NCBI GenBank assembly: GCA_028868515.1
Contig: JAGWUI010000010.1
Location: 29,860-93,859 of the forward strand
Direction: 5' to 3'
DNA length: 64,000 bases
Source of the DNA: Gammaproteobacteria bacterium
GTDB taxonomy: Bacteria > Pseudomonadota > Gammaproteobacteria > Pseudomonadales > Moraxellaceae
Shown: positions 35,325-44,250 of the stretch, one piece after another
How positions within the stretch are numbered: position 1 is the stretch's first letter
Layout: the number at the start of each line of letters is the position of its first letter
Notes under the pieces: model-generated
Database searches by the model: none
The model's input: only the letters and a program-made list of their open reading frames with translations
What the model was told of the DNA's origin: nothing
Program-made: the position numbers and the translations under genes

Positions 35325-35457
35325 ACATTCTTTCTTACATTATTTAAAACGGTTATACCTACCTGATACATACTTTATTAATACTATACAACCACTTGAA
35401 CAACGTTTGTATATTATTATGTTAGTTTTAGCTTAATTTAAACAAAATACTTAACAT

Positions 35458-37125
35458 TTATGGATATGTATCTTCAACGTATGGATTAATCTTGTAATGC
35501 ATCATTATTTCATCAATTTCTTGTTCCGATAATTTCGGCAAACAAGCCAAAGCTGATTGATTTAAAGATAAACTTTCCCAGTCCCATTTCTCTTTATATT
35601 TTTCTATAAGCTCAATCGACCAAGGTATAGCTTCATTCCTACATAATTCCTCCCAATGCCAAAGTACCTTATCATATAAATAATCGTCAACTGCACTAGT
35701 TTCAATCAATCTCGCATTCTCGTTTTCTTCAAGCACGTTAATAGAATCAATCAGCTCAATAGACCACGACAAGGCTTTATTCTGAGATAATTTTCCCCAA
35801 TCCCATCTATCATAATATTTTTCGATAAATTCTACAGACCACGGCAAGGCTTTATTTCCAGATAACTCTTCCCAGTCCCATTTATCCAGATACATTTCAA
35901 TGAGCTCTTTAGACCAAGGCAGGGTTTCATTCCAAGCTAAAGCCCCCCAACACCATTTATCCAGATACTTTTCAATAAGCTCTATAGACCAAGGCAAAAC
36001 TTTACTCTTAGATAGATAACCACTACGTGCCGAACCATGATTTTTTTTATAGTAAAACTTGTCTGATTTGTTAGATAAAAGACCCCAACACCACTTATCC
36101 TTATATTTCTCAATAAACTCTATAGACCATGGTAAAGCTTCATTCCTAGATAGCTCTTCCCAATCCCATTTTTCTTGATATTTTTCAACGAACTCTATAG
36201 ACCATGGTAAGGATTCATTCAGTGATAAAAATGACCAATCCCACTTACCCTGATATTTTTCAATAAGCTCTATTGACCACGGAAAGGCTTTATTCCTAGA
36301 TAAAATACTCCACCAGTCCACTTCGCAATAGGGATCGCTATCGCACAACATATTATTATATTTTTCAATTAGATATATTGACCATGGCAAGGTGTTATTT
36401 TTAAATATCTCCCCCCAACTCCATTGATCTTGAAATCGCTCAATAAACTCAAATGACCACGGCAAAGCTTCATTATTCGATAAACAAGTATCACTAAAAT
36501 CACTCACATAATCATTCTGCCAACTTGTATCGCCACGCTCCCACCACGAAGGACTCCAACTCCACCTATCCTGATATTTCTCAACAAGCTCTATAGACCA
36601 TGGCAAAGCTTTGTTGCTAGATAAATCATCCCAATGCCATTTATCCTTATATTTCTCAATAAGCTCTATGGACCATGGCAAAGCTTTGTTGCTAGATAAA
36701 GCTACCCAATCCCATTTATCCTGATATTTTTCAATCAGCTCTATGGACCATGGTAGAGTTTTGTTCCTAGATAGTTCTTTCCAATTCCATTTATCTTGAT
36801 ATTTTTCAATAAACTTTATGGACCATGGTAGGTTTGTATTCTCAGAAATTAATGATAAGCAGCTTACTGGTTCATCTTTTTCAAAATCATACTCTCCAAA
36901 TCTGGACTGAAATTTATCGATTAACACCTCATACATACACACGCTATAAAAAAGAAAAGGTTTTACTTTATAAAATCTGATACTTTTTAACAGCTCAACA
37001 AATCGTCGCTGCTCTATATTTTGAGTTAACTGTGAAATGATCGACAGTTGCATGCTTGCAGCAGTAATCTGCACAGGTAAATGATTCCCGGCAATCACTA
37101 AAGATTTGTTTTCATCATCCTGCAT
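35458..37125 (-). CDS. Cargo protein B: 555-aa protein of ~14 tandem 25-26-aa Trp-rich repeats (consensus ALPWSIELIEKYQDKWDWEELSRNE), unknown family
   Basis: Visually obvious periodicity in the translation, with matching nucleotide-level tandem repeats (e.g. 36588-36740). The start overlaps the stop of the upstream HKD-J gene (ATGA), indicating translational coupling. Confidence 0.75.
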   Translation of the reverse strand: MQDDENKSLVIAGNHLPVQITAASMQLSIISQLTQNIEQRRFVELLKSIRFYKVKPFLFYSVCMYEVLIDKFQSRFGEYDFEKDEPVSCLSLISENTNLPWSIKFIEKYQDKWNWKELSRNKTLPWSIELIEKYQDKWDWVALSSNKALPWSIELIEKYKDKWHWDDLSSNKALPWSIELVEKYQDRWSWSPSWWERGDTSWQNDYVSDFSDTCLSNNEALPWSFEFIERFQDQWSWGEIFKNNTLPWSIYLIEKYNNMLCDSDPYCEVDWWSILSRNKAFPWSIELIEKYQGKWDWSFLSLNESLPWSIEFVEKYQEKWDWEELSRNEALPWSIEFIEKYKDKWCWGLLSNKSDKFYYKKNHGSARSGYLSKSKVLPWSIELIEKYLDKWCWGALAWNETLPWSKELIEMYLDKWDWEELSGNKALPWSVEFIEKYYDRWDWGKLSQNKALSWSIELIDSINVLEENENARLIETSAVDDYLYDKVLWHWEELCRNEAIPWSIELIEKYKEKWDWESLSLNQSALACLPKLSEQEIDEIMMHYKINPYVEDTYP

Positions 37126-42819: not shown

Positions 42820-44095
42820 TTATGCCTTTCCACATTTTATTTTGCATCTCCAATGACACTTCCATGGCTTTATTCTCCGTAAACCTTTTCGTATATGTTG
42901 CAGCCGTCCCAGAACCTTCTTTCCATCCCATTAGATAAGATCGTATTTTTTCTTCGGTTGCCATTCTATACTCTTCAGACCCTTGGGTATTTTTTTGATC
43001 CATCAACTCTGAAAAAAGATCATTTGCAGTATGCCGCAAGAGATGCGGTGTCAGACTATCAATCTGATTAGACATTGCTGATCCAATCGCAGTAAAAACT
43101 TTAGCTAACCCCTTAATCGACAAGGGCTGCCCCTCGAAGGGACCCGCCTGATGCGTGATCAATAAAAAATCATGTTTCTTAGCACCTTTAATCTTATTCC
43201 GATCTTGCATGATGTAATCTGCCACCAAATCAGATAGAGAAGTTGACAAGGCGAGTCGTCTGTCTACGGTCTTAACAACTGGCTGATTTGGACGCGGATC
43301 ATTCGGATTATCAGGCCGTCTCGCCACTAATAACTCATGACGTTGAAAATCAAAATCAGAAATACGAAGTGCCAACAACTCGCCGCCGCGTAAACCCAAA
43401 TGATAAAGTAAAAGAACAATAATCTGATTTCGTCTGCGCAATCGGACAGTGAATGGATTTTTATCTGAAAGCTGGTCAATCAATTCAAGAAGACCTGCTC
43501 GCTGTTCCTTTGTAAGCCCCTTTTTAGTAGATACCGAGCTTCTTGACTTTAGTGGTCTTCGCATGCGGATACCTTCAACCATTCGATCAATCAGTAATTT
43601 GGCATCCCTATCGACTTGTTCAAACTGACGCTCAATAAGATGTATTGCGAGCCACTCCAGATAGTTTGCAACATAGGAAGTGCGGATATATTGGGTAGGG
43701 TGACTGACACGGGGATTAGCAGCAAGGAGTGTTGCTCGTGATCCCTCTAATCTTCTGGTTACTCGTACAACATTATTTTTTTGTAATTCCAAGTCTGAAC
43801 TTTTCGTCTGTAGGTAAGTACACAGCGATTCAACTTCTTGCTGACTAAGAAATCGTTTATTGAGGAAACGAGCCTCCAAGTCAACGTCATTCAACTGGGC
43901 CCAAGCCATCAAAACACGAATCGACGACAAGACCGATAAAATGGTATTTGAAGCCATGCTCACATTACGAAATCGAACTGTTGTAAATAGTGTGGGATAC
44001 CAGAGTGGGATACCCTGATCATCTATAAGAAACGGATAGCGCTCCCCATTAGAGAATGTTGCAATGCGCACCTTTGTTTTCTTGGTAGCTAACAT
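42812..44095 (-). CDS. Tyrosine recombinase / phage-integrase family (first of trio, ginA/ritA-like)
   Basis: 427 aa. LLYHLGLRGGELLAL (box I Arg), HLLRHTANDLF (HxxR), GSGTAATYTKRF (catalytic Tyr region). Confidence 0.8.
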   Translation of the reverse strand: MLATKKTKVRIATFSNGERYPFLIDDQGIPLWYPTLFTTVRFRNVSMASNTILSVLSSIRVLMAWAQLNDVDLEARFLNKRFLSQQEVESLCTYLQTKSSDLELQKNNVVRVTRRLEGSRATLLAANPRVSHPTQYIRTSYVANYLEWLAIHLIERQFEQVDRDAKLLIDRMVEGIRMRRPLKSRSSVSTKKGLTKEQRAGLLELIDQLSDKNPFTVRLRRRNQIIVLLLYHLGLRGGELLALRISDFDFQRHELLVARRPDNPNDPRPNQPVVKTVDRRLALSTSLSDLVADYIMQDRNKIKGAKKHDFLLITHQAGPFEGQPLSIKGLAKVFTAIGSAMSNQIDSLTPHLLRHTANDLFSELMDQKNTQGSEEYRMATEEKIRSYLMGWKEGSGTAATYTKRFTENKAMEVSLEMQNKMWKGINV

Positions 44096-44250
44096 TCTCT
44101 ATGTCCATAAAATTAACAGCGTAAAATGGTAGCAAATAATACCAATTAACACAATCAAAAACTAACAGCAACTAGATGAAAATAACCCCATAAACCTATT
44201 AGGGATATGGGGTTATGTATAATACTTAACAGAAGTATATATGGTGGTTT

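What the first reader, a model, noticed from the sequence alone, without database searches (positions are those of the whole stretch)
35446..44241. ~8.8-kb integrative element with a three-tyrosine-recombinase operon plus small fourth gene (GInt/RIT-like), inserted 10 nt downstream of ssb and flanked by an 11-bp direct repeat
Three consecutive, 8-nt-overlapping minus-strand genes (427/541/676 aa) each carry the R...HxxR...Y tyrosine-recombinase signature. An overlapping 137-aa gene follows them. This four-gene layout resembles what has been described for 'genomic islands with three integrases' (GInt; ginABCD) and the recombinase-in-trio (RIT) elements, where the recombinase operon sits at one border. 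The host genes on both sides (dsbG-like with its own terminator at 35295-35324; ssb ending with canonical DDDLPF at 44251) look intact, so this is a clean insertion. I found the identical 11-mer AATACTTAACA at 35446-35456 and 44231-44241 in direct orientation, exactly bracketing the element. That makes it a candidate att/target duplication. By rough estimate, chance co-occurrence in two ~200-nt AT-rich junction windows is a few percent.
Basis: partly seen in the sequence, partly recalled or inferred. Interest (0 to 1): 0.7.

Follow-up and report, generated by a model that had tools for sequence, protein, structure and literature searches.

The report
GInt mobile island at ssb end

Summary
The four-gene operon is real: 427, 541, 676 and 137 aa on the minus strand, each pair overlapping by 8 nt. 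In order, its first three products match published GinA, GinB and GinC fragments of the experimentally studied Pseudomonas stutzeri GInt (25-37% identity, E 2e-26 to 6e-8).

GInts are already known to prefer the 3' end of ssb, with att repeats overlapping Pro-Phe-stop. So this is a new member of a known kind.

The junction is a different perfect 11-bp direct repeat, TTTAAAACGGT, at 35343-35353 and 44250-44260, overlapping the ssb stop codon. Three lines support this:
- Homology of three close relatives stops at 44246-44251.
- Conserved end motifs are shared with 40-73%-related elements.
- A reconstructed empty site was validated for a plasmid relative.

The element is 8,907 bp. Its cargo is a conserved pair: a PLD nuclease with a J-domain, plus a 25-aa-repeat solenoid protein. 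This pair is a candidate, untested conflict system. The dsbG-like flank is itself absent from the closest relative.

The parts
44250..44260 (-). attL core: ACCGTTTTAAA on the element strand. It overlaps the last two codons and stop codon of ssb (CCG TTT TAA, 44259-44251).
   Evidence: Perfect 11-bp direct repeat with 35343-35353, the only two copies in the window. Homology of relatives L041, L042 and L043 ends at 44250, 44246 and 44251. Same type of core as published ssb-inserted GInts.
44096..44249 (-). Left (gin-proximal) non-coding end, 30.5% GC. The ginA promoter presumably lies here.
   Evidence: Alignment of seven element left ends shows invariant AC, TGT.AA and hairpin columns. TGTTAR occurs 5 times in 170 nt against 8 in 8,618 nt of interior. 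Hairpin dG is -18.7 kcal/mol, z -3.4. GC.
42812..44095 (-). ginA-like tyrosine recombinase, 427 aa
   Evidence: Pfam Phage_integrase E 1.1e-13. 30% identity over 217 aa to P. stutzeri DSM 4166 GinA, E 2e-26. R, HLLRH, W and Y conserved.
41194..42819 (-). ginB-like tyrosine recombinase, 541 aa
   Evidence: NCBIfam NF041502 at 598 bits. Pfam Phage_integrase C-terminal part. 25% identity over 233 aa to GinB, E 6e-8. R...TxxR...H...Y.
39171..41201 (-). ginC-like large tyrosine-recombinase-fold protein, 676 aa, with a Cys-rich C-terminal extension
   Evidence: No Pfam hit. 30% and 37% identity to two published GinC fragments at collinear positions, E 1e-10 and 4e-9. AF2 model (pLDDT 78.8) matches XerH, XerA, Tn1549 Int and Cre with probability 1.0. 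R226, R451, H452, W471 and Y483 invariant in 32 homologues.
38765..39178 (-). ginD-like small protein, 137 aa, TTG start, coiled-coil centre
   Evidence: Same position and 8-nt overlap in relatives L037, L038 and L039 (14 nt in L040); conserved LAKHLxDRD...WQYNA motifs across all four. Weak ZapB-type coiled-coil hit only.
37125..38612 (-). Cargo gene 1: single-HKD PLD-family (NucT/DrmC-like) nuclease domain, coiled coil and a J-domain with HPD, 495 aa
   Evidence: Pfam PLDc_2 E 1e-22; DnaJ 26.2 bits, just under the 27.8 cut-off. NucT/DrmC hits. 726 homologues at E<=1e-5; most of the 120 listed are 476-523 aa and carry PF13091, usually with PF00226.
35458..37125 (-). Cargo gene 2: 555-aa protein built of ~25-aa repeats (LPWSxELIEKYxDKWDWxxLSxN), predicted alpha-solenoid
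   Evidence: 75-nt repeat families. 38-39% identical partners directly follow the PLD-J gene in two unrelated contexts. The repeat domain is fused elsewhere to kinase, PLD, Hsp70, helicase and other domains. AF2 pLDDT 76.8, with no significant PDB match.
35354..35457 (-). Right (gin-distal) AT-rich non-coding end, 23% GC.
   Evidence: Right-end alignment with the pSD_88, pKOX-86d and L040 elements. GC.
35343..35353 (-). attR core: ACCGTTTTAAA
   Evidence: The homologous position in pSD_88 was validated by a contiguous empty site in more than 2,200 plasmids.
35297..35324 (.). Bidirectional terminator hairpin just outside attR, probably the original ssb terminator
   Evidence: A near-identical stem (AAAAGCTCATA...TATGGGCTTTT) lies 27 nt after the ssb stop in relative L042, which lacks the element.
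44251..44739 (-). Target gene ssb, whose C-terminal DDDLPF and stop codon are preserved by the insertion
   Evidence: Pfam SSB E 6e-38; sequence.

Best explanation
[quoted passage not shown] It is integrated site-specifically into the last codons of the chromosomal ssb gene.

Layout:
- The ginABCD operon sits at the ssb-proximal border.
- A two-gene cargo follows.
- A 104-nt AT-rich distal end closes the element.

Inferred mechanism, by analogy with the experimentally studied P. stutzeri GInt:
- GinA, GinB, GinC and GinD together recombine the element's attI with an attB that overlaps Pro-Phe-stop of ssb. The crossover falls inside ACCGTTTTAAA.
- This leaves that 11-mer at both borders and regenerates an intact SSB C-terminus.
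- The element supplies a replacement hairpin terminator for ssb.
- Excision would be attL x attR recombination to a circle.
- The element has no transfer genes, so it must hitch a ride. Its 40-51%-identical relatives sit in the same site of ssb genes on conjugative plasmids (F-type, IncC, Pseudomonas). Chromosome-to-plasmid hopping through the conserved ssb end is therefore a plausible route.

Shown here: homology, architecture, repeats, conserved end motifs, and absence from close relatives. Inferred: activity, the circular form, the crossover position and the transfer route.
For: - Gene order, sizes and 8-nt overlaps.
- Collinear homology to published GinA, GinB and GinC fragments. NF041502 at 598 bits for the second gene.
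- Tyrosine-recombinase fold of the third gene's product, with invariant R/R/H/W/Y.
- A perfect 11-bp direct repeat over the ssb stop, unique in the window. It arose in only 27 of 20,000 shuffles.
- Published ssb-inserted GInts have att repeats CCGTTCTAAT, CCGTTTTTAATT and GTGCCGTTCT. The paper states that attL overlaps the end of ssb without altering the product.
- Three relatives with 92-95% identical MFS neighbours (82-86% nt identity) lose homology at 44246-44251.
- Seven related elements, all directly after an ssb stop, share left-end motifs starting right after the stop.
- The right-end motif TATCAGGT-N7-AACCGTTYTAA is shared with pSD_88. That element's borders were confirmed by a synthetic empty site matching more than 2,200 plasmids end to end at 99.8%.
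- The distal end is AT-rich, 23% GC.
Against: - No genome with exactly this right flank and no element was found, so the right border rests on the repeat and on motif conservation, not on a true empty site.
- In the closest relative whose contig spans the site (L043), a larger 13.6-kb block is missing.
- GinD could not be compared with the type GinD sequence.
- No second copy of this exact element exists in any collection searched; the nearest GinC is 73% identical. Mobility of this particular copy is therefore undocumented.
- The literature describes GinC as lacking part of the catalytic set, whereas here it is complete.
Confidence: 0.88

Rival explanations
1. The element's borders are the reader's AATACTTAACA repeats (35446-35456 and 44221-44231), a target duplication 20 nt downstream of ssb.
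For: The 11-mer is exact, direct and unique to these two places. It arose by chance in only about 2.6% of shuffles.
Against: - Sequence between the ssb stop and the 11-mer (AAACCACC...) is conserved in elements from other hosts, so it is element DNA.
- Relatives' homology stops at the ssb stop, not 20 nt later.
- The region 35354-35445 carries the end motif shared with pSD_88, whose border was validated.
- In relative L042 only 27 nt separate the ssb stop from the terminator.
- The left copy coincides with an invariant internal TGT[T/A]AA motif present in seven elements.
Confidence: 0.03
2. It is a strand-biased circularizing integrative element (SE: intA-tfp-intB-srap), not a GInt.
For: Both have four genes, three with a recombinase fold plus one small gene. 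Both occur in Gammaproteobacteria and have no transfer genes.
Against: - In SEs the second product lacks RHRY and the third is the large catalytic IntB. Here the second has R, R, H and Y and matches GinB, and the third matches GinC.
- GInt and SE proteins are reported not to hit each other by BLAST, yet these proteins hit GinA, GinB and GinC.
- No 13-19-bp imperfect inverted repeats were seen at the termini in the repeat scan or by inspection of the ends; the only end-to-end inverted repeat found (22 nt, 77% complementary) is subterminal, 66 and 82 nt in from the cores.
Confidence: 0.02
3. The mobile unit is the whole 13.6-kb block 30618-44250. It would be a larger or composite island whose distal part carries the SPFH, PHI-1-like and DsbC/G-like genes, and 35343-35353 would be an internal or relic site.
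For: In relative L043, ssb is followed after about 280 nt by the hns-like gene, so all of 30618-44250 is absent. None of the three extra genes occurs in any of the 80 MFS-linked loci. The best DsbG-like relatives in reference genomes are only 42-49% identical, in Burkholderiales.
Against: - No GInt-type end motif or ssb-like core lies between 28000 and 35342.
- The conserved right-end motif and the perfect repeat sit at 35343-35375.
- A terminator like the one after ssb in L042 lies just outside 35343.
- GC of 30618-35342 (42%) is host-like.
- L042 and L043 already differ from each other downstream of ssb, so the locus is simply variable.
Confidence: 0.07
4. It is a recombinase-in-trio (RIT) element.
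For: Three adjacent, overlapping, co-oriented tyrosine-recombinase genes.
Against: A conserved fourth gene is part of the operon, the sizes of 427, 541 and 676 aa are much larger and unequal, there are no long terminal inverted repeats, and there is direct homology to GinA-C. The RIT definition used here is from my own knowledge of Ricker et al. and.
Confidence: 0.01

Closest known systems
[quoted passage not shown] 2017, PMC5385486)
   Same: ginABCD operon at the 5' border, cargo, an AT-rich 3' end, 10-17-nt flanking direct repeats, and no transfer genes. GinA, GinB and GinC are homologous at 25-37% identity, within the 24-40% the authors report between GInt families.
   Different: The target differs (an ABC transporter gene there, ssb here). 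GinC here keeps the first catalytic Arg, which is reported missing in the type GinC. GinB here has TxxR instead of HxxR. The cargo differs.
ssb-inserted GInts listed in Table S3 of PMC5385486 (Ralstonia solanacearum PSI07, Shewanella baltica BA175, Opitutus terrae PB90, P. syringae UMAF0158 and AZ84488)
   Same: Insertion at the 3' end of ssb with att repeats over CCGTTYTAA, preserving the SSB product. Small elements exist (9.7 kb in Opitutus).
   Different: A different host lineage (an uncultured gammaproteobacterial MAG) and different cargo. Their sequences could not be compared here.
Plasmid-borne relatives: Salmonella Dublin pSD_88 and many E. coli F-type plasmids, Citrobacter pRHBSTW-00986_3, K. 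oxytoca pKOX-86d (IncC), P. aeruginosa pPAD8
   Same: GinC is 40-51% identical. The position directly after an ssb stop is the same, as are the left-end TGT[T/A]AAG motif and hairpin. The right-end TATCAGGT-N7-AACC motif is shared with pSD_88 and, as a candidate end, pKOX-86d; the right ends of the Citrobacter and pPAD8 elements were not located. Cargo is defence-type: Avs4 plus AbiGi in pSD_88, and a helicase plus AAA ATPase in the Citrobacter plasmid.
   Different: They sit in plasmid ssb genes rather than the chromosomal one, and their cargo differs.
Strand-biased circularizing integrative elements (SE-6283, SE-6945; PMC10214605)
   Same: Four core genes, three with a recombinase fold plus a small one, with site-specific integration and no mobilisation genes.
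   Different: The gene order of catalytic and non-catalytic members differs, SE and GInt proteins show no sequence similarity, and SEs end in inverted-repeat motifs C and C'.
Tn554 (tnpA, tnpB, tnpC)
   Same: Two tyrosine recombinases plus a small accessory protein, which the GInt authors say resembles GinD, and site-specific insertion.
   Different: It has no third recombinase-fold protein and its hosts are Firmicutes. Not compared by sequence here.

Membership tests
[quoted passage not shown] | Four co-oriented genes, ginA-ginB-ginC-ginD, at one border of the island | tested here: met
   427, 541, 676 and 137 aa, all on the minus strand, with 8-nt overlaps, starting 156 nt from the ssb stop.
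[quoted passage not shown] | Products homologous to GinA, GinB and GinC of characterised GInts, in that order | tested here: met
   BLASTP against published P. stutzeri DSM 4166 fragments: GinA 30%, E 2e-26; GinB 25%, E 6e-8; GinC 30% and 37%, E 1e-10 and 4e-9, at collinear positions. Only fragments of the type proteins were available.
[quoted passage not shown] | GinD: a small protein with a predicted C-terminal helix-loop-helix and low similarity to Tn554 TnpC | tested here: inconclusive
   The size, position, overlap and conservation among relatives fit. Only a weak coiled-coil hit was found. No type GinD or TnpC sequence was available for comparison.
[quoted passage not shown] | Tripartite structure: gin operon, cargo, and a short AT-rich 3' end | tested here: met
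   Cargo at 35458-38612 (two genes). The 3' end at 35354-35457 is 23% GC against 43% for the window.
[quoted passage not shown] | Flanked by direct, often imperfect, repeats of 10-17 nt | tested here: met
   TTTAAAACGGT, 11 nt and perfect, at 35343-35353 and 44250-44260.
[quoted passage not shown] | Site-specific insertion, preferentially at the 3' end of ssb without altering the product | tested here: met
   The core overlaps CCG TTT TAA of ssb, and DDDLPF* is intact. All seven elements examined from this clade (GinC 40-73% identical) lie directly after an ssb stop.
[quoted passage not shown] | Present or absent among related genomes (an island, not core) | tested here: met
   Relatives L041, L042 and L043 lose homology at the ssb stop. 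L043 resumes at 30617.
[quoted passage not shown] | Excises as a circle, and all four genes are required | not testable with these tools
   This needs PCR or long reads and genetics.
SE (strand-biased circularizing integrative element) | Order intA - tfp (no RHRY) - intB (large, RHRY) - srap | tested here: not met
   The second product has R, R, H and Y and matches GinB. The third matches GinC.
SE (strand-biased circularizing integrative element) | 13-19-bp imperfect terminal inverted repeats (motifs C and C') | tested here: not met
   No inverted repeat at the termini in the repeat scan or by inspection of the end sequences; the only end-to-end one is a subterminal 22-nt, 77% complementary pair at 35420-35441 and 44146-44167, 66 and 82 nt in from the cores. 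The scan lists only the 25 longest of 70 pairs.
RIT (recombinase in trio) | Exactly three recombinase genes as the core, bounded by long inverted repeats | tested here: not met
   A fourth conserved gene is present and there are no long terminal inverted repeats. The definition is from my own knowledge.

The most novel reading that the evidence does not exclude
The cargo may be a previously undescribed two-gene anti-phage or anti-plasmid system. One gene encodes a single-HKD PLD nuclease fused to a J-domain with an HPD motif, which would engage host DnaK. The other encodes a 25-aa-repeat alpha-solenoid that would act as the sensor. The pair travels as a unit between a GInt, an ICE and a chromosomal site. 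The repeat domain is fused elsewhere to kinases, PLD, Hsp70, helicases and other effector-type domains. Separately, the conserved TGT[T/A]AA and TATCAGGT-N7-AACC end motifs could be the self-recognition signals that the GInt authors said they could not find.
Probability: 0.3. Interest if true: 0.6.

Novelty: new member of a known kind. Interest (0 to 1): 0.3.

Why it matters
For the element itself, little changes. It adds one more GInt at the already known ssb hotspot, in an uncultured gammaproteobacterium.

Three modest points are useful:
- The ssb-targeting clade spans both chromosomes and conjugative plasmids. This suggests how a transfer-less island spreads: by hopping between ssb genes.
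- Within this clade both ends carry conserved short motifs, which are candidate recombinase or GinD binding sites. The original description found no common end features.
- The small cargo is a tidy two-gene module of unknown function, found in other mobile contexts. That makes it a reasonable candidate for defence-system screening.

Tried and rejected
- Exact-protein look-ups for SSB (two start choices), the 541-aa protein, the MFS protein and P0001 found nothing. UvrA gave only a 3-kb contig.
It returned only 42-49% relatives in Variovorax and other Burkholderiales, so it gave no empty site.
- Megablast of the whole element against plasmids gave no match.
- tblastn with the type GinA fragment found no near-identical plasmid copy from which to take a type GinD.
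- phmmer of GinA against PDB gave nothing. The GinC profile against PDB gave only a marginal XerA hit, E 0.38. The fold search settled the question instead.
- The terminator scan did not call the 44182-44216 hairpin; folding did.
- Foldseek of the repeat protein against PDB gave no significant match. The afdb50 library was unavailable.
- A search for a third att-like site or end motif that would explain the extra 4.7 kb found none.
- Literature searches for a PLD plus J-domain defence system found nothing specific.
- I looked for simple inverted-repeat core arms around the att core by eye and found no convincing symmetry, so I make no claim about it.
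Full report
**What is there**

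On the minus strand, directly downstream of ssb (44251-44739), lie four overlapping ORFs:
- 427 aa, 42812-44095
- 541 aa, 41194-42819
- 676 aa, 39171-41201
- 137 aa, 38765-39178

Each junction overlaps by 8 nt. Two further genes follow: 495 aa at 37125-38612 and 555 aa at 35458-37125.

Pfam finds Phage_integrase in the first two proteins and nothing in the third. The fourth gives only a sub-threshold coiled-coil hit. NCBIfam's 'site-specific integrase' model NF041502 scores 598 bits on the second protein.

**The repeats**

A different perfect 11-mer, TTTAAAACGGT, lies at 35343-35353 and 44250-44260. It also occurs nowhere else in the window, and it overlaps the last two codons and stop of ssb.

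**What is known**

Bardaji et al. 2017 (PMC5385486) defined GInts by these features:
- a ginABCD operon (three integrase-like genes plus a small gene, all four needed for excision and integration) at the 5' border
- cargo of 2.5-70 kb
- a short AT-rich 3' end
- flanking 10-17-nt direct repeats

[quoted passage not shown] They list att repeats such as CCGTTCTAAT/CCGTTTTGAAT, CCGTTTTTAATT/CCTTTTTTAATT and GTGCCGTTCT. The repeat I found is of exactly this type.

GInts are also already recognised as carriers of defence systems in E. coli.

A sister class, the SEs, has the order intA-tfp-intB-srap and proteins that do not hit GInt proteins.

**Membership**

The supplement of the GInt paper prints fragments of P. 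stutzeri DSM 4166 GinA, GinB and GinC. BLASTP results against them:

| Window protein | Type fragment | Identity | E-value |
|---|---|---|---|
| 427 aa | GinA | 30% over 217 aa | 2e-26 |
| 541 aa | GinB | 25% over 233 aa | 6e-8 |
| 676 aa | GinC, residues 61-179 | 30% | 1e-10 |
| 676 aa | GinC, residues 481-540 | 37% | 4e-9 |

The two GinC fragments align with residues 62-166 and 426-487 of the 676-aa protein, so they are collinear. These identities lie within the 24-40% the authors give between GInt families.

An AF2 model of the 676-aa protein (pLDDT 78.8) matches XerH, XerA, Tn1549 integrase, Cre and IntI with probability 1.0. In 32 homologues R226, R451, H452, W471 and Y483 are invariant. 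In this clade, therefore, GinC has a complete catalytic set, unlike the published description of the type GinC.

Family alignments show:
- GinA has R, HxxRH, W and Y.
- GinB has R, R, H and Y, but the His of HxxR is variable (Thr in the window).

GinD is conserved among relatives in size, TTG start and overlap (8 nt, except 14 nt in L040). It could not be compared with the type GinD.

SE and RIT membership fail on gene order, the fourth gene and the terminal repeats.

**Borders**

Left side:
- A metagenome scan with the neighbouring MFS protein found close relatives: L041, L042 and L043, at 95%, 94% and 92% aa identity.
- Their nucleotide homology to the window (82-86%) ends at 44250, 44246 and 44251, which is at the ssb stop.
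- Elements 66-69% identical in GinC from other hosts (L039, L040) begin AAACCACC... immediately after their own ssb stops, even though those ssb genes end CCATTCTAA rather than CCGTTTTAA. Element DNA therefore starts at the stop codon.

Right side:
- The window's right end reads TATCAGGTAGGTATAACCGTTTTAA. The element in Salmonella plasmid pSD_88 (GinC 50% identical) ends TATCAGGTTATGTGAACCGTTCTAA.
- I joined pSD_88's ssb end to its right flank at that core. The 400-nt construct matched more than 2,200 plasmids end to end, the best at 99.8%. The natural empty site reads ...ATTCCGTTCTAACGAAAG....
- This validates the motif-based border in a relative.
- pKOX-86d and L040 have similar candidate right ends.
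- In L042 a hairpin with almost the same stem as the window's 35297-35324 terminator lies 27 nt after the ssb stop. In the window it lies 19 nt after the attR core.

Together these results place the element at 35354-44260, 8,907 bp with one repeat copy counted.

Aligning seven left ends (GinC identity to the window 40-73%) shows invariant TGT.AA about 20-25 nt after the stop, followed by a hairpin and T-run.

TGTTAR occurs five times, all on the same strand, in the left 170 nt and twice in the right 130 nt. The 8.6-kb interior has eight copies. The 11-mer is thus a subterminal repeated motif, plausibly a protein-binding site. That function is inference only.

The hairpin at 44182-44216 folds at -18.7 kcal/mol with z -3.4. 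It probably terminates ssb now that the original terminator has been displaced.

**Surroundings**

L043 resumes homology at window 30617, just upstream of an hns-like gene. So 30618-35342 is also missing there. This segment holds an SPFH protein, a PHI-1-like secreted protein and the DsbC/G-like protein.

- None of these three genes occurs in any of the 80 MFS-linked loci.
- The DsbG-like protein has only 42-49% relatives in 185,000 reference genomes.
- I found no GInt-type end there.
- L042 has yet another gene downstream.

The locus is a variable hotspot, and the 'dsbG-like host flank' is not established as core. Five of the 80 related loci carry a different GInt family (31% GinA identity) after ssb.

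**Cargo**

The 495-aa protein has one PLD HKD domain (NucT/DrmC-like), a coiled coil and a J-domain with HPD. It has 726 homologues at E<=1e-5, and most of the 120 listed are of similar length.

In two unrelated contexts the gene is followed directly by a 38-39% identical homologue of the 555-aa repeat protein:
- L122, a chromosomal site beside an SNF2 helicase
- L125, an F-type T4SS region

The repeat domain is also found fused to Ser/Thr kinase, PLD, dynamin-like GTPase, HRDC, UvrD/PIF1 helicase, Hsp70, UDG and exonuclease domains. Its model is a short-helix solenoid with no significant PDB match.

PADLOC has no model for the repeat protein, and I found no paper describing such a system. A conflict or defence role is a reasonable guess but is untested.

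**Host**

The exact GinC and PLD proteins are on record only from an NCBI MAG labelled 'Gammaproteobacteria bacterium', on a 101-kb contig. The Acinetobacter/Moraxellaceae assignment was not tested.

**Verdict**

This is a genuine, apparently intact GInt in its published favourite target. It is a new member of a known kind.

Noticed in passing
window 30618-35342: A further 4.7-kb block next to the element is also absent from the closest relative L043, where ssb is followed after about 280 nt by the hns-like gene. The block holds an SPFH/Band-7 protein (734 aa, 30933-33137, minus strand), a PHI-1/EXORDIUM-like secreted protein (317 aa, 33406-34359, plus strand) and a DsbC/G-like protein (34409-35230, plus strand). 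No GInt-type end or att-like site bounds it, so its origin is unexplained.
   Followed up: partly
window 35458-38612; L122:8001-10756; L125:8001-11095: The PLD-nuclease/J-domain gene and the 25-aa-repeat solenoid gene form a conserved adjacent pair in three unrelated genomic contexts: this GInt, a chromosomal site beside an SNF2 helicase, and an F-type T4SS ICE-like region. The repeat domain is fused elsewhere to kinase, PLD, Hsp70, helicase, UDG and exonuclease domains. The repeat protein has no PADLOC model, and neither the fold search nor the literature searches identified the pair.
   Followed up: partly
L067, L069, L080, L114, L119 (metagenome loci with a 60% identical MFS neighbour): A second, distantly related GInt family (GinA about 31% and GinC about 32% identical to the window's) also sits directly downstream of ssb in 5 of 80 related loci. 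This shows how often the site is occupied.
   Followed up: partly
L038 (pSD_88), L037, L126 (pKOX-86d, IncC), L127 (pPAD8): Relatives of this element occupy the ssb genes of conjugative or large plasmids. L038 carries Avs4 plus AbiGi, and L037 carries a helicase plus an AAA ATPase. In pSD_88 the insertion changes the ssb stop from TAA to TAG, which places the crossover upstream of the last base of the core.
   Followed up: partly
window 39171-41201 (residues about 535-570 of the product): GinC-like proteins carry an invariant Cys/His-rich segment (H535, C542, C551, C557, C560, C565) after the recombinase domain. It was modelled with low confidence and may be a zinc-binding module.
   Followed up: no
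window 30250-30582: An H-NS-family gene (Histone_HNS C-terminal domain, E 1e-18) borders the variable region. It is the first gene after ssb in relative L043.
   Followed up: no
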